The notes beneath the pieces are model-generated. The model was not told where the DNA came from. It worked only from the letters and a program-made list of their open reading frames with translations, and made no database searches. A stretch of 24,000 nt of DNA, from assembly GCA_037478835.1 (NCBI GenBank), contig JBBFLV010000001.1, positions 286,526 through 310,525 of the forward strand. Direction: 5' to 3'. A program made the position numbers and the translations under genes. Below are positions 6,471 to 18,268 of this stretch, in pieces. Every line of letters begins with the position of its first letter. Position 1 is the stretch's first letter. Source of the stretch: Anaerolineales bacterium (lineage in GTDB: Bacteria; Chloroflexota; Anaerolineae; Anaerolineales; Villigracilaceae).

Positions 6471-6601
6471 GAGAGGATTGACGGGATTTACAGAGGATTT
6501 GAGTTTGGTAAAAACCAAATCCTGTGGCGGAATGGGACACGGATGGACGCGGAGCGGATATACAGGCTCATGCTGAAACCTAAAAAGCCCTGCGGATTTG
6601 C
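6471..6601. repeat. Family C (GGAT/CGGAT-rich) intergenic element with hairpin
   Basis: GAGGATT, CGGGATT, GAGGATT, CACGGATGG, GCGGATA and GCGGATT motifs. Hairpin ACAGAGGATTTG (6490-6501) pairs with CAAATCCTGT (6516-6525) with a 2-nt bulge. Confidence 0.6.
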
Positions 6602-7929: not shown

Positions 7930-9036
7930 ATGCCCTATGCACATATCACCGGCTGGGGGATGGCCGTTCCGGAGAAGGTGTTGACGAACACCGAGCTGGA
8001 AAAGATGGTGGAGACCAGCGATGCTTGGATCCGCGAACGCACGGGAATTCGCGAGCGACGCATTGCCGGCCCAGATGAACACCCTTCGGTGCTGGGCGCG
8101 CGTGCCGCGCTCAAAGCGTTGGAGGTTGCTCGTCTACATCCACGCGATGTTGAGCTGATCATTTGTGCCACTTCCAGCCCGGAGTACCTTTTCCCGGCCA
8201 CGGCCTGCCTGATCCAGGATGCGATCGGGGCGGCAAAAGCCGGTGCGTTTGACCTGCTGGCGGCCTGTTCGGGATTTATTTACGCCGTGCACATGGCGGC
8301 TCAGGCGATTCGCAGCGGGGCGATCCAGAATGCGTTGGTGATCGGGACAGAGACGCTTTCGCGCATCACGAATTGGAAGGACCGGAACACCTGCATTCTG
8401 TTCGGCGATGGGGCGGGAGCTTTTGTGCTCCAGGCCAGCGATCGGCCGGGTGGGGTGCTGGCCGGGGTGATGCATTCCGATGGATCGGGGGGCAACTTGC
8501 TAATCCTGCCGGCGGGAGGCAGTCGCATGCCGGCCAGCTTGGATACGGTGAGCAATGGCCATCACTATATCTACATGGACGGGCGCGAGGTCTTTCGCTT
8601 CGCCACCCGTGTGTTGGCTCAGTCCACGTTGGAAGTGGTGGAAAAGGCCGGACTGCAGCTGGAGGATATCCGCTGGATCATCCCGCATCAGGCGAACTAT
8701 CGCATCATCGAAACGGCGGCGCGCGGGCTGAAATTGCCGGTAGAGCGGTTTATCATCAACCTGGATCGCTACGGCAACACGTCCACAGCTTCGATCCCGA
8801 TTGCCACCTGTGAGGCCGCCGAAAAGGGTTTGCTCAAGGCGGGGGATAAGATCGTTTTCACCGGCTTCGGTGCCGGCCTGACCTGGGGAGCCTTGGTCGC
8901 CGAATGGAGCGGTCCCTTGCCTTCGGCCACCCGCCCGATCCGACCGCAACGCTATCGCCCTGTGGCGCGCATGCGCTCTTTCTGGCACCGCCTGCTGCGC
9001 TTCCTGGAAGGGTTGATCTGGGGGCGAAAGGGGTGA
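7930..9036 (+). CDS. fabH: 3-oxoacyl-ACP synthase III (KAS III) with a C-terminal extension of about 42 aa
   Basis: GAGG at 7921-7924 lies 5 nt before ATG 7930. Catalytic triad contexts LLAACSGFIYA (Cys), IIPHQANYRII (His) and RYGNTSTASIP (Asn). GFGAGLTWGA is normally near the end of FabH, but here 42 further residues follow (8908-9033). Confidence 0.9.
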   Translation: MPYAHITGWGMAVPEKVLTNTELEKMVETSDAWIRERTGIRERRIAGPDEHPSVLGARAALKALEVARLHPRDVELIICATSSPEYLFPATACLIQDAIGAAKAGAFDLLAACSGFIYAVHMAAQAIRSGAIQNALVIGTETLSRITNWKDRNTCILFGDGAGAFVLQASDRPGGVLAGVMHSDGSGGNLLILPAGGSRMPASLDTVSNGHHYIYMDGREVFRFATRVLAQSTLEVVEKAGLQLEDIRWIIPHQANYRIIETAARGLKLPVERFIINLDRYGNTSTASIPIATCEAAEKGLLKAGDKIVFTGFGAGLTWGALVAEWSGPLPSATRPIRPQRYRPVARMRSFWHRLLRFLEGLIWGRKG

Positions 9037-9096
9037 GAGGGAAAGAGAGCACTTGACGCGTGAGCCTCTGGCTACGGAGGGGGTAAACATTCGGAA

Positions 9097-9131
9097 GGAC
9101 ACGGGTGAGCGCGGATGGGGACGGATTTTTT
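9097..9131. repeat. Family C copy
   Basis: GGACACGGGTGAGCGCGGATGGGGACGGATTTTTT carries the same CGGATGGG / ACGGAT motifs as 15461-15507 and 6531-6560. Confidence 0.55.
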
Positions 9132-9229
9132 GCCGTTGTAATTGACATGCTTCTATCCTTGTCTGGTGGTAGATTACGGCATATGGAGTCTCCCACCCTT
9201 TTTTACCTGGCTGGGTATAATTGAGCTTG

Positions 9230-9904
9230 ATGGACGTTTCCTCTCCCTTTTCTAACCTCTCTCCACAGGTGCGCGAGAAGTTGCGCCCTCTCGTGCGGAC
9301 CCGACAGTTCGATGCAGGGGAGGTGATCTTTTTACAAGATGAACCTACCCAGGCCATTTATATCGTTGGACAAGGCCGGGTAAAGATCACCCGTACAACG
9401 CCGGATGGGGAGGAGAGCATTCTCTGCATTCGCAAGGCCGGCGAATATTTTTGCCCGGTCCCTTTGCTGGATGGAAAAGGACAACTGGGCACTGCTTCTG
9501 CGATCACCCCGGTGACCATCCTTTGTATCGAGCGTAATGCTTTCCTGCAATTGTGTCAGGAGCATCCGGAACTGCTCGCCGTTGTTCAGGCAGATTGTTT
9601 GGGGGAAGTACGCTATCTTTTGCATCGTTTGGAAACGACCACTCATCGCACCTTGCGCGAACGCGTGGTCGTGGCTTTGTTGGATGCGCTCCATTCTTCT
9701 AAAGAGGTGGAAAACAATCATGGCGTGGTCCTGCTCACCCATCAGGAATTGGCCGGTCTGAGCGGAGTCTCAAGAGAAAACACTTCACGCGTGCTCAAAG
9801 AACTGGAACGGGAAGGCTTGTTGAAGCTACAGCGGGGGAAAATCCATATTCTGGATATTGCACGCTTGAGAAGAATGCTGGAGCCCACCTTCTATCGTCG
9901 GTGA
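9230..9904 (+). CDS. Crp/Fnr-family transcriptional regulator (cNMP-binding-like sensor domain + C-terminal HTH)
   Basis: The beta-roll region (EVIFLQDEPTQAIYIVGQGRVKI...) is followed by the HTH THQELAGLSGVSRENTSRVLKELEREGLL, which closely parallels the E. coli CRP helix GCSRETVGRILKMLEDQ. The start is uncertain: ATG 9230 is preferred over the TTG 9221 of the track ORF. Confidence 0.85.
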   Translation: MDVSSPFSNLSPQVREKLRPLVRTRQFDAGEVIFLQDEPTQAIYIVGQGRVKITRTTPDGEESILCIRKAGEYFCPVPLLDGKGQLGTASAITPVTILCIERNAFLQLCQEHPELLAVVQADCLGEVRYLLHRLETTTHRTLRERVVVALLDALHSSKEVENNHGVVLLTHQELAGLSGVSRENTSRVLKELEREGLLKLQRGKIHILDIARLRRMLEPTFYRR

Positions 9905-10061
9905 ACGTATCCAGATTAGCGAAGTGGGGGGATCATTTTGCCGCATAAACATGTTGACCTTGTACCAGTCTCAATCCTTTCGGGCTATGTCCTGTTCCGG
10001 GGCTCCGAGCGGGCTTTATTATGGGCCGAGTGTGGGGTTTCGGTGTGCGAGGAAGTGAAGT

Positions 10062-10099
10062 GTTAGGAGGTTGGGATGTTAGGAGGTTAGAGATGGTAG
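10062..10099. repeat. Two copies of GTTAGGAGGTT plus AGAGATGGTAG, inverted relative to the array at 10553-10658
   Basis: GTTAGGAGGTT at 10062-10072 and 10078-10088. TAGGAGGTTAGAG (10080-10092) is the exact reverse complement of CTCTAACCTCCTA at 10582-10594 and 10612-10624. Confidence 0.8.
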
Positions 10100-10108
10100 A
10101 ATAGTGCT

Positions 10109-10552
10109 ATGGAACAGAGGAAAAAAGTGAATGAATTGAGTTTTGACGAGTGGCAAAAGACGATTCCGGACTACATCAGAAACGATCCGCTATGGGAATC
10201 TGGTTATTACCGGTTAGCGTTGTACCTCTACGATCTTGTCTGGCAAGATTGCGGTTTGCTGAAGCGAGATTTTCGCGGCCGAGAAATAGCCGGCCAGATC
10301 ATCCGCAGTGCAGGAGGCATTTGTGCCAATCTAGAAGAAGCGTACGGACGAGGAGTTGGCACAGCCGATTATGTGCGTGTGATGCGTATTGCTCTCGGCG
10401 AAGCCCGCGAGACACGCGGCTGGTATTTTCGTGCTCGCCGGATTCTCCCCCCGGAATTGCTCTCACATCGTGCTACTCTCACCGGAAAACTGATCGCTAT
10501 GCTTTCAAGCACCATCTCTTCCCACCGTAACAACCTGGGTAAATCGTCATAG
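10109..10552 (+). CDS. Four-helix-bundle protein (23S rRNA intervening-sequence protein family)
   Basis: Family-typical motifs QIIRSAGGICANLEEAYGRG ... YVRVMRIALGEARETRGWYF, compared with the family pattern QLxRSxxSIxxNIxEGxxR ... FLxIAxGSxxE. Lower GC than the surroundings. Alternative start GTG 10127, preceded by GAGGA. Confidence 0.7.
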   Translation: MEQRKKVNELSFDEWQKTIPDYIRNDPLWESGYYRLALYLYDLVWQDCGLLKRDFRGREIAGQIIRSAGGICANLEEAYGRGVGTADYVRVMRIALGEARETRGWYFRARRILPPELLSHRATLTGKLIAMLSSTISSHRNNLGKSS

Positions 10553-10658
10553 CCTACCCTCCTGCGCTCTCCCCTCCTACCCTCTAACCTCCTACCCTCT
10601 AATCTCCTACCCTCTAACCTCCTACCCTCTAATCTCCTACCCTCTAATCTCCTACCCA
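10553..10658. repeat. Tandem array of a 15-nt unit CTCCTACCCTCTAAY (family A)
   Basis: Five full units at 10574-10648, a partial unit at 10649-10658, and a degenerate lead-in from 10553. The last base alternates C/T. Confidence 0.9.
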
Positions 10659-10682
10659 ATATTCACCTTCGTATAGCTAACC

Positions 10683-11534
10683 ATGCATAGAATCCGTACC
10701 AAACTCAAACTTTATTGGCCCCTCATCAAATCCCTCCAAACCAGCCTCTTGCTGGCAACTGGGCTGGCCGGCTATCTCAGCGCGCACACGTCGCCTTCCG
10801 GGTTGATCCTGCTAGGCGTGGCCGTCAGCCTGTTCCTGGCCATCAGCGGCTCGACCGTGCTCAATATGTGGTATGACCGTGATATTGACGCGGTGATGAA
10901 CCGCACCCATCACCGTCCGTTGGTCACCGGGCGCATTTCGCCGACCGAGGCCTTGCGACTGGGGCTGATCCTCTCGATCCTGGGCGTGGGGTTGGCCGTG
11001 TGGATGTCGCCGCTCTACGGGCTGGTGGTCTTCGCCGGGCTGTTCTTTGACGTGGTCATCTACACCCTGTGGCTCAAGCGCCGCACCTGCTGGAGCATCG
11101 TCTGGGGCGGGATTGCGGGAGGGATGCCTATCCTCGCCGGACGGGTGATGGCCATCGGACAGATTGACCTGATCGGCATTCTGCTCAGCATGGCCGTGCT
11201 GTTCTGGATCCCGACCCACACCCTCACCTTTTCCATGCGCTTCTTCGCCGACTATCAAGCGGCGCGCGTCCCGACCTTCCCCTCCACCTACGGCTTTGAG
11301 ACCACCCGAGCCGTGATCGCCCTTTCGGCGATCATCGCCGCGGCCAGCATGGGGGTGGCCGGCGTGATGATCGGCGTTCAGGCCGGCTTCCTGCGTCTGA
11401 TGGCCGTGCTCTCGGCGGGATTGCTCCTCCTCTCCTTCGCCACCGTCTTCCGCCCCTCTGAGCGGATCAACTACAGTTTGTTCAAGTACGCCTCGCTGTA
11501 CATGTTGGCCTCCATGATTCTGCTTTCGATTTGA
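10683..11534 (+). CDS. ctaB: Protoheme IX farnesyltransferase (heme O synthase), UbiA prenyltransferase family
   Basis: 283-aa polytopic protein. Asp-rich motif NMWYDRDIDAVMNRTHHRPLVTGRIS, typical of CtaB/CyoE. No obvious SD before the ATG. Confidence 0.72.
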   Translation: MHRIRTKLKLYWPLIKSLQTSLLLATGLAGYLSAHTSPSGLILLGVAVSLFLAISGSTVLNMWYDRDIDAVMNRTHHRPLVTGRISPTEALRLGLILSILGVGLAVWMSPLYGLVVFAGLFFDVVIYTLWLKRRTCWSIVWGGIAGGMPILAGRVMAIGQIDLIGILLSMAVLFWIPTHTLTFSMRFFADYQAARVPTFPSTYGFETTRAVIALSAIIAAASMGVAGVMIGVQAGFLRLMAVLSAGLLLLSFATVFRPSERINYSLFKYASLYMLASMILLSI

Positions 11535-11647
11535 CCGTAGACGGTGGACCATAGACCGTTGACCGAGACGGTAGACCGTAGACCGTCCACCGTCTACCGT
11601 ACCCAGTCCGTCCACCGTCCACCGTCAACCGTCCATCGTCCATCATC
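11535..11647. repeat. Heptamer-period repeat block GACCGTN / CCACCGT (family B) with an internal 13-bp inverted repeat
   Basis: Successive 7-mers: gaccgta gacggtg gaccata gaccgtt ... cgtccac cgtccac cgtcaac cgtccat cgtccat. GTAGACGGTGGAC (11537-11549) is the reverse complement of GTCCACCGTCTAC (11585-11597). Confidence 0.85.
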
Positions 11648-11649
11648 CC

Positions 11650-12255
11650 ATGAAAACCTCTCCTCTCTCTCGTCTCTTCCTCCTACTCACCGCGTTGCTG
11701 GCTGCCTGGCAGGTGGCGATCGGTATCGAAGGCCTGGAACATGTGCCGGTGCTGGCCTATACCGTCGGCTTCGGCGTCCTGCTCGTCGCCTGCCTGTTGC
11801 TGATCATTCTCGGCCTGGATGTGTTGGAGAGTCCGATCGTGGTCATTGTCTCCACCGTCATCCCGCTCAGCCTCTCGTTAGGGTTGGTCTGGGAGCACCT
11901 GACCTCCTGGCGGACGGCTTACCTGACCTTTGCCCTGGCCGGCTTTCTGGCCATCCTCGTCACCCGTGCCTTCCCGTTCAAGGGGCGGTGGCCGGTGCTT
12001 GTGTTGGCGGTTGTCCATGGGGTTTCCGGGCTGATCATCTTTCTCCTGCCGAGTATCCTGGCGGCGCAGGGAGCTACCCGTCCGGGCTTTGCCCTGGTCG
12101 GCCTGGGCGGCGCGCTGATCGGGCTGGGCGGGCTGCTGCTCTCCTTCCTGAAAACCGGCCGGCCAATCCTGCCGCGTGAGACGATCTTGCGTATCCTGCC
12201 GGCCCTCTTGCTGTTGACGACCGCCGCCTTCGTGGCCGGCTTTGCGTTGGCGTAG
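11650..12255 (+). CDS. Hypothetical polytopic membrane protein (about 6 TM segments)
   Basis: 201-aa ORF of alternating hydrophobic helices. No recognisable motif and no SD. The start abuts the heptamer repeat block. Confidence 0.5.
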   Translation: MKTSPLSRLFLLLTALLAAWQVAIGIEGLEHVPVLAYTVGFGVLLVACLLLIILGLDVLESPIVVIVSTVIPLSLSLGLVWEHLTSWRTAYLTFALAGFLAILVTRAFPFKGRWPVLVLAVVHGVSGLIIFLLPSILAAQGATRPGFALVGLGGALIGLGGLLLSFLKTGRPILPRETILRILPALLLLTTAAFVAGFALA

Positions 12256-12422: not shown

Positions 12423-12496
12423 GGCCGACTAGCTCAATTCGGTAGAGCAGCTGACTCTTAATCAGTTGGTTCGGGGTTCGAGTCCCCGGTCGGTCA
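12423..12496 (+). tRNA. tRNA-Lys (anticodon CUU)
   Basis: Hand-folded cloverleaf: acceptor GGCCGAC/GTCGGTC (one G-U), D arm GCTC/GAGC, anticodon stem GCTGA/TCAGT with loop CTCTTAA (anticodon CTT), variable loop TGGTT, T arm CGGGG-TTCGAGT-CCCCG, discriminator A. CCA is not encoded. Confidence 0.9.
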
Positions 12497-12502
12497 CTCC
12501 AC

Positions 12503-12529
12503 CCGCCGTCCAGGCGGTTTTTTTATTTT
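12503..12529 (+). terminator. Rho-independent terminator after tRNA-Lys
   Basis: CCGCC (12503-12507), loop gtcca, GGCGG (12513-12517), followed by TTTTTTTATTTT. Confidence 0.75.
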
Positions 12530-12566
12530 CCTCACCGCTCGGCAAGGGGGGGCTGTGACTCTTTTA

Positions 12567-12575
12567 TGCTACAAT
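12567..12575 (+). promoter_or_regulatory. Extended -10 promoter (TGcTACAAT) for the NACHT gene
   Basis: aTGcTACAAT lies 31 nt upstream of ATG 12606. The identical 10-mer ATGCTACAAT occurs at the CODH/ACS promoter. Confidence 0.5.
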
Positions 12576-12605
12576 TAATCCCAAATCCCCTCCCCAGAGA
12601 CGGCC

Positions 12606-15455
12606 ATGGGCGATCGGAATACTTCAATCGGCGGCAATGTCGAAAACAGCATCATCAACACCGGTGATCACAACATCTTCAACCTGGGCACGCCTGCACT
12701 GACCCCGGAAGAACAGGAGCGCCTGACGCAGGCCTACCTGCAGGCCGTGGCCGCCGAGTGGGCTGTGTTGCGCCTCTACGAAGGGGAGGAAGAAGAGCGC
12801 GGCATCCCGCTGACCGATGTCTATGTGCTGCTGCAGGCCCGCCACACCCCGCCGCCCAAACCTTTGGAGCCTCCCCGCCCGGACGTGCCCAGATCCGAAG
12901 ATCGGCTAAAGCACACAGGCCCGCAACTTCCTTTCACGCCTCTCGAAGAAGAAAAAGCGCGCCAGGAGCATCAACCGCCTCCCCCGCCGCCCCCGCCGCC
13001 CGTCCCACTGAAGGACGCACTCAAGGATGCTACCCACCTGATGTTATTGGGTGAACCCGGCAGCGGCAAGAGCACCACGCTGCAATTCATCGGTCTGTGC
13101 TTTGCCAGGCGGGAAGAGAACTGGGCGCAGGAGAAACTCGGCCTGGAGGAAAGCCGCGTGCCGGTCTTGCTGCGCCTGCCCGTTTGTGCCGAGGAACTGG
13201 CTAAGGGCGGTGACGGGCTGCGCCGCGCCCTGATAGAAGAGATCGCCCGTTTGCTGCAGCAATCCGCTATCGCCGAACAACTTTACGAATCCTGGACGGC
13301 AAACGGCCGCTTGCTGGTGCTGCTCGACGGGCTGGATGAAGTGCATGAGCAACGAGAGAAGGTGCGCGAGCAAATCGAAGCCTTCGCCCGTGCCCCGGCC
13401 GGACGAAACGCCCGCCTGGTAGTGGCTTCCCGCATTGCCGGCTTCAGAACCTTGCAGGGGCTGAAGGAATACACCCTCCAATCGCTGGAAAAGGCGGACG
13501 ACATCCGGCATTACCTGGAAGGCTGGCTACGGGCGCTGGAAATCAAGGGCAACCCGAAAACCGAAGCGCAGATCCTGCTGGAGAAGATGCAGTCCGTCCC
13601 GGCCCTGCGCCGCGTGTTGGATAACCCCCTGCTGCTACGCCTGAGCGCCGAGGTCTATGCCCGCCAGGGGGAGATCGCCCGCAACCGCGCCGACCTTTAC
13701 GCCCGTTACGTGGCCGAAGCCTGGCGGCGCGCCGAACGCCGCGGCATTGATCGCAACCGGAAGAAGAGGGCTAGACGGGCACTGAAGGCCATCGCTTGGC
13801 ACCTGCATAGCGGCGGTGAGCGCGGCGAAGAGCGCCTGCTCCAACTGCTGCGGGAAAACGGCCTAGCCGCCGATGCTGAGACCGCGCGGGAGTTGCTGGC
13901 TCTGCTGCGCCAGAAAACCGGCCTGTTGGTGCGCCTGGAAGGGAATCAGTACGCCTTTGCCCATGCTACCATCGGCGAATATTTCGTCGCCTGCTACCTG
14001 AAGTGCGCCTGGAAAAAGAACCCGCGGCGCACGCGGGCCTTCCTACGCCCGCGTTGGCATCTGCCCGAATGGCGCGAGCCGATCATCTTGCTGGCCGGGA
14101 TGTTGGGGAAGAATCAACTCCAGGCGCTGCTTGCTGACCTCTGGCCGCCGCGGGATCGCTTCGAGCGCGCTGCTTACCGCAACCTGTTCCTGGCGGCCGA
14201 ACTGGCCGCCGAGGCTGGGCGTTGGGAAGACTTGGCGCCGACCTTGCGCCCTGCCCTGCTTTGCGCCCTACACGATGAAGACTGGTGGGTTCGTATGGTC
14301 GCAGTGTATACGCTGAGGAACACAGAGGATCGAGATAGATCGACAATCGATCATTTGAGTGTTGCGTTGCTAAAAGATAAGGAGTGGACAGTTCGTGCTG
14401 CAGCGGCTGAGACATTAGGCGAAATTGGCCAACATGCCGGTAGAGATGAGTTTGCCGGAATTGTGAAATCTTTGATTGATGCTTTGAATGACCAGGATAT
14501 ACATGTCCAAGAGAAAGCGACTGATGCTCTGGCAAAAATCGGCAAAGTTTTAAGTGAGCTAAATGAGCTAAATGAGCTAATAAAAGTATTCCAAAATTAC
14601 AACCAAAATGACGAGTTATATTCGCATATCGTCCGGATTCTGAGCAGAATCGGTAAGCCCGCAATAGATTTTCTTGTTCGAGCTTTGGAAAAAGCAGAAG
14701 GGTATAAGTACGTAGAGATTATGTTTACTCTGCAAGATATACAAAGTAGAATTCAAGGTGAAAATCAGGCAGAATCATCGGATTGGTATCAGAAGATTTG
14801 GGCCTACATAAAGAACAATCATTTGCTAGAAATGCAACTCGGTGATCCACGTGATCCACAATTTCTACAAGCCCAAATCCGAGATTTGCAAGATAGAGAT
14901 AAGAATAAGCGTCAGCGGGCAGCTTGGGTATTGGCAGAGATCGGTGACCCACAGGCCATACCTGCCCTGCTCTATGCTTTGCGGGATAAGGAAGAAGAGG
15001 TGCGCAGGAGGGTGTCTTGGGCTTTGCAAAGGATTTTCCGAAATCTACGTTTATCCCAAGATTCGGACATAAATCGCAAAATTATGAGCCTTCTCCGTTT
15101 ATCTCATACACTTTGGCGTCTAAGGCGAGCCGGAGGAGTCTCCCTCCTCTCCTCTGCGTTGACCTACCGCGACGCCCTGGAGGTCGCCCTCTCCACGTGG
15201 AAGGACCCGCTCCAACCGCCGCCGCAGGAAGTGCGCCGGGCGCAGCTCCGGCAGGCGGTGCAAGGGGTAGGCCTGGCTCTGCTGGCCGGGTTGGCCGGGG
15301 TGCTCGCCATTCTGCTCGGCGGAGTCGGGAAGGCGCTGGGCGATTTGATCGCCCCGCTTTGGGCCGCGCGGCCGTTTCTCCTGCTTCTGGCCGCAGTGAT
15401 CCTGCTCGGCGCGTTGGGCTGGGCATTGCAGCGCCGGCTTGAGAGCAGGAAATAG
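12606..15455 (+). CDS. STAND NTPase: NACHT domain + HEAT (PBS-lyase-type) repeats + C-terminal double TM
   Basis: Walker A LLGEPGSGKST (13050-13076 for GEPGSGKST). Walker B LLVLLDGLDEV (13311-13343). HEAT repeats include KDKEWTVRAAAAETLGEIG and DRDKNKRQRAAWVLAEIGDPQAIPALLYALRDKEEEVRRRVSWALQRI. Terminal hydrophobic helices GVGLALLAGLAGVLAILLGGVG and PFLLLLAAVILLGALGWAL. Confidence 0.85.
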   Translation: MGDRNTSIGGNVENSIINTGDHNIFNLGTPALTPEEQERLTQAYLQAVAAEWAVLRLYEGEEEERGIPLTDVYVLLQARHTPPPKPLEPPRPDVPRSEDRLKHTGPQLPFTPLEEEKARQEHQPPPPPPPPPVPLKDALKDATHLMLLGEPGSGKSTTLQFIGLCFARREENWAQEKLGLEESRVPVLLRLPVCAEELAKGGDGLRRALIEEIARLLQQSAIAEQLYESWTANGRLLVLLDGLDEVHEQREKVREQIEAFARAPAGRNARLVVASRIAGFRTLQGLKEYTLQSLEKADDIRHYLEGWLRALEIKGNPKTEAQILLEKMQSVPALRRVLDNPLLLRLSAEVYARQGEIARNRADLYARYVAEAWRRAERRGIDRNRKKRARRALKAIAWHLHSGGERGEERLLQLLRENGLAADAETARELLALLRQKTGLLVRLEGNQYAFAHATIGEYFVACYLKCAWKKNPRRTRAFLRPRWHLPEWREPIILLAGMLGKNQLQALLADLWPPRDRFERAAYRNLFLAAELAAEAGRWEDLAPTLRPALLCALHDEDWWVRMVAVYTLRNTEDRDRSTIDHLSVALLKDKEWTVRAAAAETLGEIGQHAGRDEFAGIVKSLIDALNDQDIHVQEKATDALAKIGKVLSELNELNELIKVFQNYNQNDELYSHIVRILSRIGKPAIDFLVRALEKAEGYKYVEIMFTLQDIQSRIQGENQAESSDWYQKIWAYIKNNHLLEMQLGDPRDPQFLQAQIRDLQDRDKNKRQRAAWVLAEIGDPQAIPALLYALRDKEEEVRRRVSWALQRIFRNLRLSQDSDINRKIMSLLRLSHTLWRLRRAGGVSLLSSALTYRDALEVALSTWKDPLQPPPQEVRRAQLRQAVQGVGLALLAGLAGVLAILLGGVGKALGDLIAPLWAARPFLLLLAAVILLGALGWALQRRLESRK

Positions 15456-15460
15456 CCAGG

Positions 15461-15507
15461 CCGGAATCGGACACGGATGGGCACGGATGACACGGATTCG
15501 CACGGAT
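15461..15507. repeat. CACGGAT-type repeat block (family C)
   Basis: CACGGAT at 15472, 15482, 15491 and 15501, spaced 9-10 nt. AATCGGACACGGATGGGCACGGA resembles AATGGGACACGGATGGACGCGGA at 6531-6553. Confidence 0.8.
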
Positions 15508-15531
15508 CTTTGAGCATCGCTTATCTCAAAG
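15508..15531 (+). other. Hairpin downstream of the NACHT gene (no U tract)
   Basis: CTTTGAG (15508-15514) pairs with CTCAAAG (15525-15531) across a 10-nt loop. It is followed by GGGGG, so it is not a classical intrinsic terminator. Confidence 0.3.
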
Positions 15532-15596
15532 GGGGATGTCGCCACGGCCACAAAAAATCCCACTGCCCGATTCATTGCTTTCAGAATCCAAGCTCT

Positions 15597-15659
15597 CTAA
15601 CCCCTACCCCCTAACCTCTAACCCCTAACCTCTAACCCCTAACCTCTAATCCTCCCCCT
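15597..15659. repeat. Heptamer tandem array CTAACCC/CTAACCT (family A variant)
   Basis: ctaaccc ctacccc ctaacct ctaaccc ctaacct ctaaccc ctaacct ctaatcc tccccct, with strict 7-nt phase. Confidence 0.9.
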
Positions 15660-15660
15660 C

Positions 15661-15690
15661 CACGGTCTACGGTCCACCGTCCACCGTCAA
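15661..15690. repeat. Family B copy (ACGGTCT ACGGTCC ACCGTCC ACCGTCA)
   Basis: The 19-mer GTCCACCGTCCACCGTCAA at 15672-15690 is identical to 11610-11628. Confidence 0.85.
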
Positions 15691-15714
15691 ATCAAGAAAT
15701 TTGTCATCCTGCCA

Positions 15715-15730
15715 TGTGATGAGTATCACG
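15715..15730 (+). promoter_or_regulatory. CRP/FNR-family-type palindromic operator TGTGA-N6-TCACg
   Basis: TGTGAtgagtaTCACg matches 9 of 10 positions of the CRP consensus TGTGA-N6-TCACA. Its centre lies about 42 nt upstream of the start site predicted from the -10 at 15753-15758. Confidence 0.55.
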
Positions 15731-15749
15731 ATGGGCAGGGCATGCCGCA

Positions 15750-15758
15750 TGCTACAAT
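15750..15758 (+). promoter_or_regulatory. Extended -10 promoter (TGcTACAAT) of the CODH/ACS operon
   Basis: aTGcTACAAT lies 77 nt upstream of ATG 15835. There is no recognisable -35; the palindrome occupies that position. Confidence 0.55.
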
Positions 15759-15834
15759 GTATTAAGCAGGATTTTATTTTAGAGGTTTGAGGTCACCATG
15801 TACAACACTTCATGATTCCCGTCAGGAGGTGGCT

Positions 15835-16215
15835 ATGGAAAAGGTCTCGTTTGTAGCGCCGGCGTTGTACGGTGATCACCATGTCACCGAGGTGCGGCGG
15901 ATGCTTCTTTCTCTGGAGGGGGTTACGGAAGTCTATGCCAGCAGTGCCTTTCACGTCATTGAAATCACCTACGATCCGCAAACGATCAATGCAGAACAAC
16001 TGAAGGCGACCCTGGAGCGCAGCGGCTATCTGGATGAATTGCCCGTGCCGGTCGAAGCACCGCCGCAAGGGGGACCCGGCGATGGTCACACCTTTTTCCG
16101 TCACACCGCGGTGATGGAAAACGTACGTCAAGTTACGTTTCTGCGCCCGGCACCCTATCAGGGGCGGCCTCTCTGGCCGTGCCCCGGCTTTGGGGTGTTG
16201 AAGGCGGAGGACTAG
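15835..16215 (+). CDS. Small HMA-fold-like protein lacking the CxxC metal site (hypothetical; possible metallochaperone)
   Basis: AGGAGG at 15824-15829 lies 5 nt before ATG 15835. The N-terminal 70 aa follow the HMA pattern (V.F..P.LYGDHHVTEVRRMLLSLEGVTEV...VIEITYDPQTINAEQLKATLERSGY), with LYGDHH where MxCxxC normally sits. Confidence 0.6.
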   Translation: MEKVSFVAPALYGDHHVTEVRRMLLSLEGVTEVYASSAFHVIEITYDPQTINAEQLKATLERSGYLDELPVPVEAPPQGGPGDGHTFFRHTAVMENVRQVTFLRPAPYQGRPLWPCPGFGVLKAED

Positions 16216-16249
16216 GTTTACGGAGAACCTCCGAGAAAGGCAGGGAGAT

Positions 16250-18268
16250 ATGCCTCGCAAACGCGAACTCCACGAATATTCCACCGATCCGGCCGCCCAA
16301 GAGATGTTGCGCCGGGCGGAAGAGATGGGTATTTCAACCGCTTTTACGCGCGCCGATGCCATGGTGCCTTGTAACATCGGCGGGGCCGGGATGTGTTGTA
16401 AGCAGTGCGGCATGGGACCCTGCCGCCTGACCAAAGAAGGGGATGTGGGCGTCTGCGGCGCCACGATCGACACCATCCAGGCACGCAACCTGACCCGTGC
16501 CATCGCCGCCGGCGCCGCGGCACACTCCGATCACGGGCGCGATATGGCCTTCCTGCTCAAGGCCACGGCCAAAGGCGAGGCCGAAGGCTACATGATCCGC
16601 GATATCGCCAAGCTGCGCATCGTGGCCTCGAAATACGGCATTCCGATCGAAAAACGCGCTCCGGAAGAGATCGCCTCCGACCTGGCCGATCTTTACATCG
16701 CCCAATTCGGCCAGCAGACGGGCGAGATCGTCCTGCCCACGCGAGCCCCGAAGAAACGACAGGAACTGTGGCGTAAGCTGGGCGTCTGGCCGCGGGGGTT
16801 GGACCGCGAAGTGGTCGAATGCCTGCACCGCACGCACATCGGCGACGATCAGGACCCGGAGCATATCCTGCACCATGCCGTGCGCACTGCCCTGGCCGAC
16901 GGTTGGGGCGGCTCGATGATCGCCACCGATGTTTCCGATATCCTCTTCGGCACCCCGGCGCCGATCTATGGACAAGCGAACCTGGGCGTGATCAAAGAGG
17001 ACATGGTCAACGTCATCGTCCATGGGCACGAACCCAGCCTGAGCGAAATGCTGGTCGCCGCCTCGCAGGACCCGGAGATCATCGCCTATGCCCGTGCGGC
17101 CGGCGCGAACGGCGTGAACTTGGCCGGCATCTGCTGCACGGCCAACGAAATCCTCATGCGTCAGGGCATTCCGGCGGCCGGGAATTTCCTCCATCAGGAG
17201 CTGGCCATCCTGACCGGCGCCGTGGAGGCCATGGTGGTGGATGTGCAATGCATTATGCAGGCTTTGGTAGGGCTGGCGCAGAACTTCCACACCCTGATCA
17301 TCACCACCTCGCCCAAGGTCAAGATTAAGGGAGCGACGCACATCGAGTTCGATGAGCACCGCGCCTATTCGATTGCCAAACAAATTCTGCGCACGGCAAT
17401 TGACAATTTCAGGAACCGTGAACGTGCCCGCGTGCACATTCCACAGGTGCGCGAGGATCTGATCCCCGGCTTTTCGCACGAATATATCAACTACATGCTC
17501 GGCGGCTCCTACCGCGGCTCGTTCCGTCCGCTCAACGATGCCATCATGGCCGGGCGCATTCGCGGTGTGGTCGCCGTGATCGGTTGCAACAACCCGCGCA
17601 CCAGTCAGGACTACCTGCACCATTACATCGTGCGCGAACTGCTCAAGCAGGATGTGCTCGTCGTCCAGACCGGTTGCGGCGCCATCGCTTCGGCCAAGCT
17701 TGGGTTGATGCTCGGCGAGGCCGGTTTGGAACAGGTCGGCCCCGGCCTGCGCGAGGTGTGCGAAGCGATCGGCATTCCGCCGGTGCTCCACATGGGTTCC
17801 TGCGTGGATAACACGCGCATTCTGACCGTGCTCACGCAAATGGTCGAAGAGGGTGGCCTGGGCGATGATATTGACCAGATCCCCGCCGTGGGCATGGCAC
17901 CGGAATGGATGAGCGAAAAGGCCCTGGCGATCGGCACCTATTGTGTGGCTTCGGGAGCCTACGTCATCTTCAGCGGCGCTTCGCCGATCAGCGGCATGCC
18001 CGATCGCGTCTCGGATAGCGACAAGGTGCTGCGTTATATCTCCGAAGGCTGGGAGAAACTCTACGGCGGCAAGATGGAATTCATCCCGGAGCCGCGGGAA
18101 ATCCTGGAGCGCACGCTGGCCCACATTGACAAGAAGCGCGCCGCGCTGGGCTTGCCGGCTTACGATCCCAGCCGTTGGGGCAAGAGCGGCGATCTGCTGA
18201 TCCATCAAATCGAAGCCCTACCGTTAGAGCAACGCCGTCAGGCGATCTACGGCCTGGCCGCCGATTGA
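16250..18268 (+). CDS. acsA: Ni-Fe-S carbon monoxide dehydrogenase catalytic subunit
   Basis: 672 aa. Cluster-ligand motifs VPCNIGGAGMCCKQCGMGPCRL, VHGHEPS, AGICCTANE, VIGCNNP and HMGSCVDN. Confidence 0.95.
   Translation: MPRKRELHEYSTDPAAQEMLRRAEEMGISTAFTRADAMVPCNIGGAGMCCKQCGMGPCRLTKEGDVGVCGATIDTIQARNLTRAIAAGAAAHSDHGRDMAFLLKATAKGEAEGYMIRDIAKLRIVASKYGIPIEKRAPEEIASDLADLYIAQFGQQTGEIVLPTRAPKKRQELWRKLGVWPRGLDREVVECLHRTHIGDDQDPEHILHHAVRTALADGWGGSMIATDVSDILFGTPAPIYGQANLGVIKEDMVNVIVHGHEPSLSEMLVAASQDPEIIAYARAAGANGVNLAGICCTANEILMRQGIPAAGNFLHQELAILTGAVEAMVVDVQCIMQALVGLAQNFHTLIITTSPKVKIKGATHIEFDEHRAYSIAKQILRTAIDNFRNRERARVHIPQVREDLIPGFSHEYINYMLGGSYRGSFRPLNDAIMAGRIRGVVAVIGCNNPRTSQDYLHHYIVRELLKQDVLVVQTGCGAIASAKLGLMLGEAGLEQVGPGLREVCEAIGIPPVLHMGSCVDNTRILTVLTQMVEEGGLGDDIDQIPAVGMAPEWMSEKALAIGTYCVASGAYVIFSGASPISGMPDRVSDSDKVLRYISEGWEKLYGGKMEFIPEPREILERTLAHIDKKRAALGLPAYDPSRWGKSGDLLIHQIEALPLEQRRQAIYGLAAD

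What the first reader, a model, noticed from the sequence alone, without database searches (positions are those of the whole stretch)
14280..15120. In-frame low-GC block of about 0.84 kb inside the NACHT gene, coinciding with the HEAT-repeat sensor module
Hand counts of G+C per 60-nt line:
- Inside the block: 27/60 (14341-14400), 23/60 (14521-14580), 20/60 (14581-14640).
- In the same ORF just outside it: 43/60 (14161-14220) and 46/60 (15241-15300).

The reading frame stays open through both junctions, at about 14280 and 15120. Codon choice flips inside the block: AAA, TTA, ATA and GAT become frequent, whereas CTG, GCC and CGC dominate outside. The block begins at the first HEAT repeat (HDEDWWVRMVAVYTLRN) and ends just before the GC-rich tail that holds the TM helices.

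Inference: the sensor module was probably replaced by recombination with a low-GC donor (cassette-like specificity swap). The NTPase and membrane tail stayed native. Such a sharp intragenic boundary is unusual, and it would fit arms-race evolution of a STAND sensor.
Basis: seen in the sequence. Interest (0 to 1): 0.72.

Follow-up and report, generated by a model that had tools for sequence, protein, structure and literature searches.

The report
Swapped AT-rich sensor in NACHT gene
A bacterial immune-receptor-like gene (NACHT ATPase, HEAT-repeat sensor, membrane anchor) in a GC-rich Anaerolineales genome has had its whole sensor replaced in frame by an 828-bp AT-rich version of unknown origin, and related genes show the same kind of sensor swapping.

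Summary
Window 14283-15110 (276 codons, in frame) has GC 0.43 and GC3 0.40. The rest of ORF 12606-15455 has GC3 0.75-0.81 and the window average GC is 0.60.

The closest relative, P0002, is 82-87% nt identical in both flanks (dS 0.31-0.47). Inside the block it has no nucleotide homology. Its own HEAT array there is 1.85 kb and uniformly GC-rich.

The block's HEAT ends are only 37-41% identical to P0002, against about 60% for family pairs with similar NACHT identity. They are about equally distant from all 44 complete family members. In-situ decay at normal rates cannot explain this, and an independent assembly spans both junctions.

The block still encodes a modelled HEAT solenoid and keeps the family-specific post-HEAT linker. 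So the source was probably a distant member of the same NACHT-HEAT-TM family.

No donor was found among 15 billion proteins, phages, plasmids or viral contigs.

The pattern is not unique:
- Two syntenic orthologue pairs have near-identical flanks and diverged HEAT regions.
- A neighbouring NB-ARC-TPR gene shows a complete sensor swap at dS about 0.05, and both alternative sensor ends are AT-rich.

Defence function and specificity change are untested. Interest is moderate.

The parts
12606..15455 (+). Whole gene: 949-aa NACHT-HEAT-2TM protein, identical to P0001 (MAG Anaerolineales bacterium)
   Evidence: ORF listing. Identical protein on a 482-kb NCBI MAG contig and on a Logan contig. Pfam NACHT 33.3 bits (cut-off 26.7) and HEAT_2 92.6 bits (cut-off 27.7). 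AlphaFold model mean pLDDT 79.6, pTM 0.73.
12606..14282 (+). Native 5' part (codons 1-559): N-terminal region, NACHT NTPase, helical domains and the first helix of HEAT repeat 1
   Evidence: GC 0.639, GC3 0.75, like the rest of the window. It is 81.6% nt and 77% aa identical to P0002, with dS 0.47.
13050..13076 (+). Walker A motif GEPGSGKST (aa 149-157)
   Evidence: Read from the translation. These residues are invariant in family alignments A1 and A2.
13326..13340 (+). Walker B with the NACHT signature D[GAS]hDE: DGLDE (aa 241-245)
   Evidence: Read from the translation. Invariant in A1 and A2. The signature is as defined in Kibby et al. (10.1101/2022.07.19.500537).
14274..14282 (+). Left junction: GATGAAGAC (D-E-D, aa 557-559), the conserved motif that opens each HEAT repeat. 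This is the last stretch shared with P0002 before homology stops.
   Evidence: Base-by-base projection onto L001. The blastn HSP ends at 14282. The same motif is part of the 93-nt repeat unit of P0002.
14283..15110 (+). The AT-rich block (codons 560-835). It holds about seven HEAT-like helical hairpins of declining regularity, a roughly 30-aa loop, and the post-HEAT linker FRNLRLSQDSDINRKIMSLLRLSHTLWRL.
   Evidence: GC 0.431, GC3 0.40. No nt homology to relatives. At most 34% aa identity to anything retrieved. No stops where 18 are expected. Helices modelled with pLDDT about 70-92.
14556..14840 (+). Central part of the block (aa 651-745), with no detectable homologue in the family or elsewhere. 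It is the lowest-GC core (0.31-0.43).
   Evidence: blastp and tblastn of this part give only chance-level hits. GC per 90 nt.
14757..14855 (+). Low-confidence loop (aa 718-750) that interrupts the solenoid
   Evidence: pLDDT 41-51 with little regular secondary structure (one short helix, aa 725-731) in the model.
15111..15455 (+). Native 3' part (codons 836-949 plus stop): juxtamembrane linker RRAGGVSLLSSALTYRDAL... and two TM helices
   Evidence: GC 0.696, GC3 0.81. It is 86.7% nt and about 79-80% aa identical to P0002, with dS 0.31.
15261..15329 (+). Predicted TM helix 1 (about aa 886-908)
   Evidence: Kyte-Doolittle 19-residue maximum 2.35. A long helix spans 873-904 in the model.
15366..15428 (+). 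Predicted TM helix 2 (about aa 921-941)
   Evidence: Kyte-Doolittle 19-residue maximum 2.41. A helix spans 923-948 in the model.

Best explanation
The gene encodes a bacterial NLR-related STAND protein. It has an N-terminal region of unknown role, a NACHT NTPase, a HEAT-repeat solenoid in the position of the sensor, a conserved linker, and two C-terminal membrane helices.

In the lineage of this Anaerolineales genome, the DNA for almost the whole HEAT array plus the post-HEAT linker (codons 560-835) was replaced in frame. The replacement is a shorter, AT-rich and very divergent version: 276 codons, against about 617 in the nearest relative. The NACHT part and the membrane tail are native.

The most likely mechanism is homologous or homeologous recombination. 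One crossover lay in the conserved 'L-x-D-E-D' start of the first HEAT repeat (GATGAAGAC at 14274-14282). The other lay in the conserved linker just before '...LWRL-RRAGGVSLL' (about 15111).

The block retains the family-specific post-HEAT linker. The source was therefore probably a distant member of the same NACHT-HEAT-TM family, carried on AT-richer DNA. Its composition corresponds to a genome of roughly 40-45% GC if it reflects the donor.

The result is a folded receptor with a new putative ligand-binding surface on an unchanged signalling and anchoring chassis.

Shown: the mosaic structure, the breakpoints, the incongruence, coding integrity, and recurrence in relatives.

Inferred: the recombination mechanism, the nature of the donor, and any change of specificity or role in defence.
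For: 1. Step-like composition change at all three codon positions, aligned with domain boundaries. The shift in amino-acid usage (FYMINK 0.25 vs 0.16; GARP 0.23 vs 0.36) suggests the block evolved for a long time in AT-rich DNA.

2. Nucleotide homology to the P0002 gene covers 12559-14282 (81.6%) and 15111-15441 (86.7%), with nothing between. P0002 has 1851 nt of GC-rich 93-nt repeats there.

3. Rates: flank dS is 0.47 and 0.31, while third-position identity in the block's last 90 codons is 0.30, which is saturated.

4. Incongruence:
- The flanks group the window gene with P0002 (77-80% aa, against 59-64% to P0003).
- In the last HEAT plus linker, window-P0002 (41%) is no closer than P0002-P0003 (40%).
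- Family pairs with 70-80% NACHT identity have HEAT-end identities of 0.60 +/- 0.05 and 0.60 +/- 0.03. The window-P0002 pair has 0.37 and 0.41.
- The block is equidistant (0.36-0.39) from all 44 complete members.

5. The best non-self stretch in the exhaustive search is block aa 186-272 against P0002 1087-1173, the positionally equivalent last HEAT plus linker.

6. Coding integrity: no stops where 18 are expected. The model shows continuous HEAT hairpins, and fold matches are PP2A-A and alphaRep HEAT solenoids.

7. An independent Logan assembly of SRR33387333 is 100% identical over 5629 nt across both junctions.

8. The process is seen elsewhere:
- Syntenic orthologue pairs L168/L005 and L169/L170 have flanks 92-100% and HEAT regions 63-84% nt identical.
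- The neighbouring NB-ARC-TPR gene is 97.9% identical between L007 and L093 up to a sharp break. After it, 1.1-1.2 kb is unrelated, and both versions are AT-rich.
Against: - No donor or close relative of the block exists in any collection searched. The transfer is therefore inferred, not traced.
- There are no mobile-element marks, direct repeats or att-like sites at the junctions.
- P0002 is not syntenic with the window gene. The comparison may therefore be between paralogous lineages.
- Several other STAND sensor modules examined are also AT-rich relative to their NTPase parts. A sensor-specific compositional regime could contribute to the low GC independently of donor GC.
- Read-level support could not be examined.
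Confidence: 0.8

Rival explanations
1. In-situ hyper-divergence. The native HEAT array shrank by unit loss, stopped being homogenised, and drifted to AT. Possible causes are AT-biased mutation with locally ineffective GC3-maintaining selection or biased gene conversion (Hill-Robertson effects in a fast-adapting sensor), or a sensor-targeted AT-biased mutagenic process.
For: - GC3 depression of the sensor part is recurrent and domain-aligned in many STAND genes of GC-rich hosts: P0003, P0006, L118, L125, L130, L132 and the NB-ARC-TPR genes.
- Arrays change length in units of about 31 aa between near-identical proteins.
- The block's repeats are degenerate and interrupted by a loop.
- The linker is still positionally homologous to the family's.
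Against: - Flank dS is only 0.31-0.47 in total, whereas the block's third positions are saturated. GC3 would have to fall by about 0.35, which needs a local rate at least 5-10 times higher and strongly directional.
- Identity to P0002 drops from about 80% to background within a few bases at each junction, with no gradient.
- The block is equidistant from all family members rather than closest to its sister.
- At dS about 0.05, the L007/L093 sensors are already completely unrelated. Only replacement can explain that, which shows replacement operates in these genomes.
- In the GC-poor host L020 the HEAT array has higher GC3 than the NACHT part, which AT-biased drift does not predict.
Confidence: 0.1
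2. Family-wide compositional constraint or shared ancestral state. The HEAT/linker region of this family is intrinsically lower in GC, and the window gene is just the extreme of a continuum inherited vertically.
For: - P0003 (HEAT GC3 about 0.57, trough 0.30-0.53, against 0.80 in its flanks) and P0006 (0.60-0.70 against 0.92-0.98) show drops with the same domain boundaries.
- P0002 and P0006 have their gene GC minima at the last HEAT plus linker.
Against: - Five of eight family genes with DNA show no meaningful drop: L001 0.00, L007 -0.05, L008 -0.07, L088 0.00, L091 -0.04.
- The syntenic orthologue of P0006, P0004 in L168, has HEAT GC3 of 0.70-0.90 (mostly 0.80-0.90). The state is therefore not stably inherited.
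- The window block is not orthologous in sequence to the low-GC regions of P0003 or P0006: 30-34% aa identity and no nt match.
- GC3 is not constrained by protein sequence.
Confidence: 0.05
3. Assembly chimera. Reads from a co-occurring AT-rich organism were joined into the GC-rich contig at two points.
For: The sequence comes from a metagenome-assembled genome. Coverage and read pairs could not be inspected. The Logan contig may derive from the same reads as the MAG.
Against: - Two assemblies made with different software are 100% identical over 5629 nt spanning both junctions.
- Both joins are in frame, and 276 codons are open where 18 stops are expected.
- The insert encodes the right kind of domain, ending with the family-specific linker in the right register.
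- The model folds as one continuous solenoid.
- The only homology seen across the left junction, by comparison with P0002, is about 9 nt. The sequence of any hypothetical AT-rich source is unknown, but two correctly framed graph joins would each need a shared exact k-mer.
- Equivalent mosaics occur in independent samples and genes.
Confidence: 0.03

Closest known systems
Bacterial NACHT (NLR-related, 'bNACHT') proteins with antigen-receptor-type repeat C-termini and/or TM regions (Kibby et al., 10.1101/2022.07.19.500537, read)
   Same: - Central NACHT module with Walker A and the D[GAS]hDE Walker B signature.
- C-terminal superstructure-forming HEAT repeats in the sensor position.
- TM segments or an extra small module after the repeats, which are listed among the described architectures ('TM regions', 'hybrids').
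   Different: - No recognisable N-terminal enzymatic effector or adaptor (no Pfam hit in aa 1-140).
- No match to PADLOC defence models beyond the P-loop.
- Housekeeping neighbourhood.
- No experimental evidence of defence for this Chloroflexota family.
Fungal NLRs with highly internally conserved WD40/TPR/ANK repeats (HET-E/HET-D type), which diversify by repeat-unit reshuffling (Dyrka et al. 2014, PMC4986451). The same regime has been proposed for bacterial NLR repeats (Dyrka et al., 10.1101/2020.01.06.895854).
   Same: - Conserved NTPase with a hypervariable repeat sensor.
- P0002 has 19 units of 93 nt at 75% mutual identity.
- Near-identical family members differ by whole 31-aa units.
- Orthologues have conserved flanks and scrambled arrays.
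   Different: - The window block is not a reshuffled version of the local array. It is compositionally foreign, degenerate rather than internally conserved, and equidistant from all family arrays.
- It is a whole-array replacement, not unit turnover.
- The repeats are HEAT rather than WD40/TPR/ANK.
Antiviral STAND (Avs) pattern-recognition receptors (PMC13581612, PMC11564622)
   Same: STAND NTPase with a C-terminal helical-repeat sensor that binds phage proteins. Sensors differ between families on a conserved NTPase core.
   Different: - Avs proteins are not NACHT-clade proteins of this family and carry N-terminal nuclease, SIR2 or similar effectors.
- The terms 'recombination', 'swap', 'shuffl', 'modular', 'mosaic', 'domain swap' and 'GC content' had no occurrences in the paper where each was searched, so intragenic sensor replacement with a compositional signature does not appear to be discussed.
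- No trigger is known here.
Mosaic genes made by recombination at conserved flanks around a variable specificity module, for example the target-recognition domains of type I restriction HsdS subunits and phage tail-fibre tips (own knowledge, not tested here)
   Same: Conserved framework segments serve as crossover sites, the variable specificity-determining cassette is exchanged in frame, and the cassette often has atypical composition.
   Different: Different protein families and functions. Here the cassette is a repeat solenoid in a STAND NTPase, and no change of specificity has been shown.
Diversity-generating retroelement (DGR) targets among NACHT/STAND proteins (mentioned)
   Same: A dedicated way to diversify the C-terminal sensor of a bacterial NACHT protein.
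   Different: DGRs rewrite about 100-150 nt at adenine positions in C-type-lectin/FGS folds, and they need a reverse transcriptase and a template repeat. The window has no RT and no TR/VR pair, and the block is 828 nt of HEAT repeats.

Membership tests
NACHT clade of STAND NTPases | P-loop Walker A GxxxxGK[ST] | tested here: met
   GEPGSGKST at aa 149-157. These residues are invariant in alignments A1 and A2.
NACHT clade of STAND NTPases | Walker B with the D[GAS]hDE signature (definition quoted) | tested here: met
   LLVLLDGLDEV contains DGLDE at aa 241-245, invariant in the family.
NACHT clade of STAND NTPases | Match to the curated NACHT profile above its gathering score | tested here: met
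   PF05729 scores 33.3 bits against a cut-off of 26.7, over aa 145-308.
NACHT clade of STAND NTPases | Helical/winged-helix extension after the NTPase core | tested here: inconclusive
   The model has a confident helical region at aa 297-540. The whole-protein fold search was dominated by HEAT hits, so this domain was not compared on its own.
HEAT-repeat solenoid (PBS-lyase type, about 31-aa unit) | Profile matches above threshold and tandem helix-turn-helix hairpins | tested here: met
   For the block alone: HEAT_2 97.9 bits, HEAT 75.5, HEAT_PBS 44.6. The model has paired helices at aa 540-717 and 751-813. Foldseek hits are PP2A-A and alphaRep proteins at E 3e-7.
Anti-phage bNACHT / Avs defence systems | Match to a curated defence-system model | tested here: not met
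   PADLOC gives only P-loop-level hits (mad8, PtuA, PbeC, E 7e-5 to 7e-3). NCBIfam EruA scores 16.9 bits against a cut-off of 1000.
Anti-phage bNACHT / Avs defence systems | Location in a defence island or next to other defence genes | tested here: not met
   Neighbours in the window are FabF/FabH, Crp, UbiA, tRNA-Lys and CODH/ACS. In some relatives a second STAND gene is adjacent (L007, L090, L093, L097).
Anti-phage bNACHT / Avs defence systems | Protection against phage, and a phage trigger bound by the sensor | not testable with these tools
   This needs expression and phage challenge. The host is an uncultivated MAG.
Horizontally acquired / recombinant gene segment (mosaic gene) | Composition and codon usage atypical for the host, with sharp boundaries | tested here: met
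   GC3 0.40 against 0.75-0.81. z about -6. CAI-like 0.37 against at least 0.59 elsewhere.
Horizontally acquired / recombinant gene segment (mosaic gene) | Phylogenetic incongruence between the segment and its flanks | tested here: met
   Flanks are 77-80% identical to P0002. The block is 37-41% identical and equidistant from all 44 family members. The baseline for such pairs is 0.60. No formal tree test was run.
Horizontally acquired / recombinant gene segment (mosaic gene) | Identified donor lineage | tested here: not met
   The exhaustive HMMER search of 1.84 billion representatives found nothing, as did the word-indexed search, GTDB genomes, IMG/VR, GenBank phages and PLSDB plasmids. Nothing exceeded about 34% identity over a stretch spanning most of the block; short single-repeat stretches reach about 50%.
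Horizontally acquired / recombinant gene segment (mosaic gene) | Assembly-independent support for the junctions | tested here: inconclusive
   A second assembly (Logan, SRR33387333) is identical across both junctions. It may use the same reads, and read-level mapping was not possible.
DGR target gene | Nearby reverse transcriptase and a template/variable repeat pair with adenine-specific mismatches | tested here: not met
   No RT among the ORFs annotated in the window (a few ORFs gave no Pfam hit or were not scanned). No long direct repeat involves the gene. Only a stand-alone Avd-like 23S_rRNA_IVP ORF lies at 10109-10552.

The most novel reading that the evidence does not exclude
The sensor modules of STAND/NLR-like genes in GC-rich Chloroflexota (HEAT, TPR and FGS types) may form a pool of AT-rich cassettes. 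These would be exchanged in frame by recombination at the conserved NTPase-sensor and sensor-linker boundaries, on very short timescales (complete swaps at dS about 0.05).

Each lineage would then carry a conserved signalling chassis with a frequently replaced recognition surface. That would be a bacterial counterpart of receptor-repertoire diversification.

The systematic AT-richness would mark either circulation of cassettes among hosts of different GC or a sensor-specific mutational or selective regime.
Probability: 0.35. Interest if true: 0.65.

Novelty: new member of a known kind. Interest (0 to 1): 0.45.

Why it matters
Bacterial NLR-like proteins are thought to pair a conserved NTPase switch with a fast-changing sensor, but clean natural examples of how the sensor changes are rare.

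This gene is one such example. Its breakpoints are resolved to within a few bases, it keeps an intact reading frame, and its signalling and anchoring chassis is unchanged. Its relatives show that the same thing happens repeatedly.

Such natural chimeras show where a sensor can be cut and replaced without breaking the protein, which is useful for engineering receptors and for mapping what determines specificity. They also show that compositional steps inside STAND genes could be used as a simple genome-wide marker of recent sensor turnover.

The finding does not reveal a new kind of system.

Tried and rejected
**Donor search**
- Word-indexed protein search with the block alone: only generic HEAT hits at 30% or less. 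It did not even return the parent protein, so its sensitivity for this fragment is doubtful.
- Exhaustive HMMER search of 1.84 billion representatives: only the protein itself matched as one full-length stretch.
- GTDB genomes, IMG/VR viral contigs and GenBank phages: nothing.
- PLSDB plasmids: three HEAT proteins at 26-38%.
- tblastn against all 170 fetched loci, including the other AT-rich HEAT modules (L118, L020, L099/L101): at most 35%.

**Population comparison.** Neither genome contigs nor metagenome contigs held the window's own genome or a relative closer than 50% in the NACHT part. Alleles at the same locus could therefore not be compared.

**Mobile-element explanations**
- There is a tRNA-Lys 110 nt upstream. 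No att-like repeat of it was found, and no tRNA lies next to the relatives' genes.
- An inverted pair at 11528-11562 / 15659-15693 brackets the gene, but it is built from the intergenic heptamer repeats found all over this genome.
- No integrase or transposase was found among the ORFs annotated in the window (a few ORFs gave no Pfam hit or were not scanned).

**DGR.** Rejected: no RT and no TR/VR pair.

**Hidden RNA or other element in the block.** Rfam finds only the tRNA. There is no excess of promoter-like sites.

**Control for GC3 steps in other long genes.** The control was contaminated because the worst 'controls' were themselves STAND genes. That was informative, but it leaves no clean quantitative control.

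**Formal tree-based incongruence tests** were not run. Identity matrices were used instead.

Full report

Yes, in every detail.

ORF 12606-15455 (+) encodes 949 aa. The five hand counts of G+C per 60 nt are exact, and the codon flips are as described: ATA, TTA, GAT and AAA go up, and CTG, GCC and CGC go down.

A 120-nt sliding window falls from 0.62-0.72 to 0.35-0.49 between about 14260 and 15160, then rises to 0.63-0.75. By codon position, GC3 falls from about 0.77 to about 0.37, and GC1 and GC2 fall too.

With boundaries set by homology (section 2), the block is 14283-15110, which is 828 nt or 276 codons. Composition:
- Block: GC 0.431, GC1/2/3 = 0.56/0.34/0.40.
- 5' part: GC1/2/3 = 0.72/0.45/0.75.
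- 3' part: GC1/2/3 = 0.77/0.51/0.81.
- No other 828-nt window of the 24 kb goes below 0.50 (mean 0.605, sd 0.029, z about -6).

A CAI-like index against the other 16 ORFs is 0.37 for the block, against 0.67 for the 5' part and a minimum of 0.59 anywhere else.

The frame is open where about 18 stops are expected (P about 8e-9; 0 of 5000 shuffles). The other two forward frames have 19 and 23 stops. This is real coding sequence of foreign composition.

**2. What is it?**

*Domain content.* Pfam finds NACHT (aa 145-308) and HEAT repeats. The protein has Walker A GEPGSGKST and the NACHT Walker B signature DGLDE. Two hydrophobic helices close the protein.

*Identity.* The protein is identical to one from an Anaerolineales MAG on a 482-kb contig.

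*Structure.* An AlphaFold model built with a 37-sequence family alignment has mean pLDDT 79.6 and pTM 0.73. Through the block it shows:
- continuous HEAT-like hairpins at aa 540-717,
- a low-confidence loop at aa 718-750,
- two further good HEAT repeats,
- a helical linker,
- two long terminal helices.

Fold matches are PP2A-A and alphaRep HEAT solenoids.

*Neighbourhood.* The surroundings are housekeeping genes: FabF/FabH, Crp, UbiA, tRNA-Lys and the CODH/ACS cluster. PADLOC matches only the P-loop.

**3. Comparison with the closest relatives**

P0002 is 1294 aa, from GCA_019873735.1. blastn of the two genes gives 12559-14282 at 81.6% and 15111-15441 at 86.7%, with nothing between.

Both junctions are in frame:
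- The left one falls on GATGAAGAC (D-E-D), the motif that opens every HEAT repeat.
- The right one falls in the conserved linker just before RRAGGVSLL.

Where the window has 828 AT-rich nt, P0002 has 1851 nt. These form 19.3 tandem units of 93 nt at 75% mutual identity, with GC 0.64 and GC3 0.72. The nearest relative therefore does not share the low-GC segment.

| Segment | Identity to P0002 (aa) | Identity to P0003 (aa) |
|---|---|---|
| N part | 77% | 64% |
| Tail | 79-80% | 59% |
| Block | at most 34% to any retrieved protein | at most 34% to any retrieved protein |

The centre of the block (aa 651-745) has no detectable homologue.

**4. Could the block have diverged in place?**

Flank dS between the window gene and P0002 is 0.47 (N part) and 0.31 (tail). 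In the block's last 90 codons, third-position identity is 0.30, which is saturated.

A fall of GC3 from about 0.75 to 0.40 within that time would need a local, strongly AT-directed rate at least 5-10 times that of the flanks.

A family baseline points the same way. It was computed over 45 complete members with N, HEAT and tail parts:
- Pairs with 70-80% NACHT identity have first-90 and last-90 HEAT identities of 0.60 +/- 0.05 and 0.60 +/- 0.03 (minima 0.53 and 0.56).
- The window-P0002 pair has 0.37 and 0.41.
- The block is equidistant (means 0.39 and 0.36) from all 44 other members, whatever their NACHT identity (0.45-0.77).

It behaves as an outgroup to the sampled family while its flanks nest inside it.

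P0002 and P0003 have a typical first-HEAT identity for their distance (0.51). The change therefore happened in the window's lineage.

**5. Where did it come from?**

Unknown. Searches and results:
- Word-indexed search: nothing above 30%. It did not return the parent protein either, which is a sensitivity caveat.
- Exhaustive HMMER search of 1.84 billion representatives: only the protein itself as a single full-length match. All other hits add up generic HEAT stretches.
- GTDB genomes, IMG/VR, GenBank phages and PLSDB plasmids: nothing relevant.
- The other AT-rich HEAT modules fetched are unrelated.

One clue remains. The best non-self stretch is block aa 186-272 against P0002 1087-1173, the positionally equivalent last HEAT repeats plus the post-HEAT linker (IF..LR..Q.S...RK....LR....LWRL). 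Only family members extend into that linker. The source was therefore most likely a distant, unsampled member of the same NACHT-HEAT-TM family.

The composition at all three codon positions and the amino-acid shift suggest long residence in DNA of roughly 40-45% GC. This is an inference from general GC3-to-genome-GC relationships.

**6. Assembly artefact?**

Unlikely, for these reasons:
- A Logan contig from SRR33387333 is 100% identical to window 12457-18085.
- The two joins are in frame.
- The insert is the right kind of domain in the right register.
- By comparison with P0002, only about 9 nt are shared across the left junction. Any hypothetical AT-rich source sequence is unknown.
- The same kind of mosaic occurs in independent samples (section 7).

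Read-level evidence could not be examined, so a small residual doubt remains.

**7. The pattern is recurrent**

*Across NACHT-bait loci.* About 60 complete genes were recovered with a NACHT bait. In most of them, GC3 of the C-terminal part is within -0.10 to +0.05 of the NACHT part. About ten show drops of -0.17 to -0.31.

*Domain-aligned steps*:

| Gene | Sensor part GC3 | NTPase part or flanks GC3 |
|---|---|---|
| P0003 | HEAT about 0.57, trough 0.30-0.53 | 0.80 |
| P0006 | HEAT 0.60-0.70 | flanks 0.92-0.98 |
| L118 | HEAT 0.30-0.36 | 0.75-0.9 |
| L125 | FGS-type end 0.36-0.50 | 0.8-0.9 |
| L130, L132 | TPR 0.24-0.40 | 0.55-0.8 |
| L020 (GC-poor Brasilonema) | HEAT 0.64 | NACHT 0.30 (sign reversed) |

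*Syntenic orthologue pairs of this very family*:
- L168/L005: N part 93-100%, HEAT 63-79%, tail 98-100% nt identity. L005's array is about 10 GC points lower.
- L169/L170: 92-100%, 64-84% and 100%.

*Array length.* Near-identical proteins differ in array length by multiples of about 31 aa.

*The neighbouring STAND gene.* The most striking case came from an attempted control. The long 'control' genes with the largest GC3 drops turned out to be an NB-ARC/AAA_16-TPR STAND gene lying next to the NACHT-HEAT gene in L007, L090, L093 and L097.
- L007 and L093 are 97.9% nt identical up to L007:3573 (NTPase dS about 0.05).
- The next 1.1-1.2 kb (the TPR end plus the spacer) is unrelated: 22% aa and 38% nt identity.
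- Homology resumes at the next gene.
- Both alternative TPR ends are AT-rich (GC3 0.47 and 0.35, against 0.87).

At dS 0.05 only replacement can do this. Whole-sensor cassette exchange therefore demonstrably operates in these genomes, and the cassettes seen here and in several other genes are AT-rich.

**8. What this means for the interpretation**

It needs four qualifications:
- The donor is not identified.
- The source was probably a family member.
- A sharp intragenic boundary is not unusual for this family.
- The AT-richness may characterise sensor cassettes in general, not one particular donor genome.

It is not met. Five of eight family genes with DNA show no drop, the closest relative shows none, and the low-GC segments that do exist are not orthologous to this block.

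Rivals:
- In-situ hyper-divergence under an AT-biased regime: about 0.1.
- Family-wide constraint: about 0.05.
- Chimera: about 0.03.

**9. How it probably works**

*Shown.* A NACHT NTPase, a HEAT solenoid and two C-terminal TM helices lie in one intact ORF.

*Inferred from what is known of NLR-like STAND proteins* (own knowledge). The solenoid binds a ligand, the NACHT module then oligomerises, and an output follows. Here the output possibly acts through the membrane helices, since no N-terminal effector is recognisable.

Replacing the solenoid would change what is recognised while keeping the switch and anchor. Neither a ligand nor a defence role is established. The genomic context gives no support for a defence island in this genome, although some relatives have a second STAND gene alongside.

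**10. Relation to what is known**

- The architecture falls within the categories described for bacterial NACHT proteins: HEAT 'antigen-receptor-type' C-termini, TM regions and hybrids.
- Rapid diversification of NLR repeats by unit reshuffling is established in fungi and has been proposed for bacterial NLR repeats.
- The terms 'recombination', 'swap', 'shuffl', 'modular', 'mosaic', 'domain swap' and 'GC content' had no occurrences in the Avs paper where each was searched. A keyword search found no paper on the subject.

The window gene is therefore a new, unusually clean member of a known kind: a mosaic NLR-like gene with a swapped sensor.

The broader reading is open and moderately interesting. 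It holds that STAND sensors in these bacteria form an AT-rich, frequently exchanged cassette pool.

**Scores:** interest 0.45; novelty: new member of a known kind.

Noticed in passing
L007:3574-4761 versus L093:4962-6066 (gene L007 1887-4511; L093 2807-5929; also L090 1292-5929, L097 2436-5375): An NB-ARC/AAA_16-TPR STAND gene lies next to the NACHT-HEAT gene. It is 97.9% nt identical between samples up to a sharp break. Its TPR end plus the spacer (1.1-1.2 kb) is then completely unrelated. Both alternative ends are AT-rich (GC3 0.47 and 0.35, against 0.87 in the NTPase part). This is an unambiguous sensor swap at dS about 0.05.
   Followed up: yes
L168:3001-6813 vs L005:5001-8333; L169:3001-6885 vs L170:3001-6501: These are syntenic orthologue pairs of the same NACHT-HEAT-TM family. 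The NACHT part is 92-100% and the tail 98-100% nt identical, but the HEAT region is only 63-84%. L005's array is about 10 GC points lower than L168's.
   Followed up: yes
L118:1379-4888; L125:5365-8445; L037:5308-8439; L130:5392-8100; L132:5248-8010; L020:5617-8583: Other NACHT genes show domain-aligned GC3 steps between the NTPase and the C-terminal module (HEAT, FGE-sulfatase-like or TPR). In the GC-poor Brasilonema locus L020 the sign is reversed (HEAT 0.64 vs NACHT 0.30). L125 also has an N-terminal low-GC3 patch at aa 101-200. L125 and L037 have the NACHT plus FGS architecture typical of DGR targets.
   Followed up: partly
L003:8001-11270 (P0003), especially 10476-10925: The second-closest relative has a GC-depressed HEAT region of its own (0.54-0.61). 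A trough of 0.40-0.51 covers the last repeats and linker. GC returns to 0.67-0.72 exactly at the ...LLAAALTYRDAL boundary. It is not related in sequence to the window's block.
   Followed up: partly
Proteins P0044/P0049/P0052, P0017/P0030, P0009/P0016/P0032: Family members with 98-100% identical NACHT parts differ in HEAT-region length by multiples of about 31 aa (348/286/255; 714/560; 684/620/467). This indicates rapid gain and loss of repeat units.
   Followed up: partly
window 12423-12497 (+): A tRNA-Lys(CTT) gene lies 110 nt upstream of the NACHT start, followed by a terminator-like hairpin at 12503-12517. No att-like repeat of it was found downstream, and no tRNA lies next to the relatives' genes.
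   Followed up: yes
window 10539-10668, 11532-11650, 15469-15507, 15597-15652, 15660-15691, 6528-6553: Intergenic regions carry short tandem repeats of 7-15 nt (CTAACCTCCTACCCT, CTAACCTCTAACCC, ACCGTCC-like, GGACACGGAT). Related units recur at several spacers. They resemble the short tandemly repeated intergenic sequences known from cyanobacteria (own knowledge).
   Followed up: no
window 11528-11562 and 15659-15693: An imperfect inverted repeat (35 nt, 89%) brackets a 4.1-kb segment holding a membrane-protein ORF, the tRNA-Lys and the NACHT gene. The arms are built from the heptamer repeats, so this may be coincidence.
   Followed up: partly
window 9000-10800 (Crp-family gene 9221-9904; ORF 10109-10552): A second, milder low-GC stretch (0.50-0.53). 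It holds a Crp/cNMP-binding regulator (GC3 0.58) and a stand-alone four-helix-bundle 23S_rRNA_IVP (Avd-like) ORF. No reverse transcriptase is nearby.
   Followed up: partly
window 12975-13001: A run of nine prolines (CCG/CCC repeats) lies in the linker between the N-terminal region and the NACHT domain. It is conserved in P0002 and is poorly modelled (pLDDT below 50 around aa 104-117).
   Followed up: no
(tool behaviour): The word-indexed protein search with the 276-aa block did not return the parent protein P0001, although the exhaustive HMMER search did. Negative results from the indexed search with fragments of repeat proteins should be treated with caution.
   Followed up: yes
L116:3255-6698; L015:612-3218: A NACHT-FGS gene and a CHAT-domain gene show low GC3 (0.38-0.62) in the first 200-250 codons of their stop-to-stop ORFs. 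This could be an AT-rich N-terminal module or just upstream non-coding sequence. Start codons were not determined.
   Followed up: no
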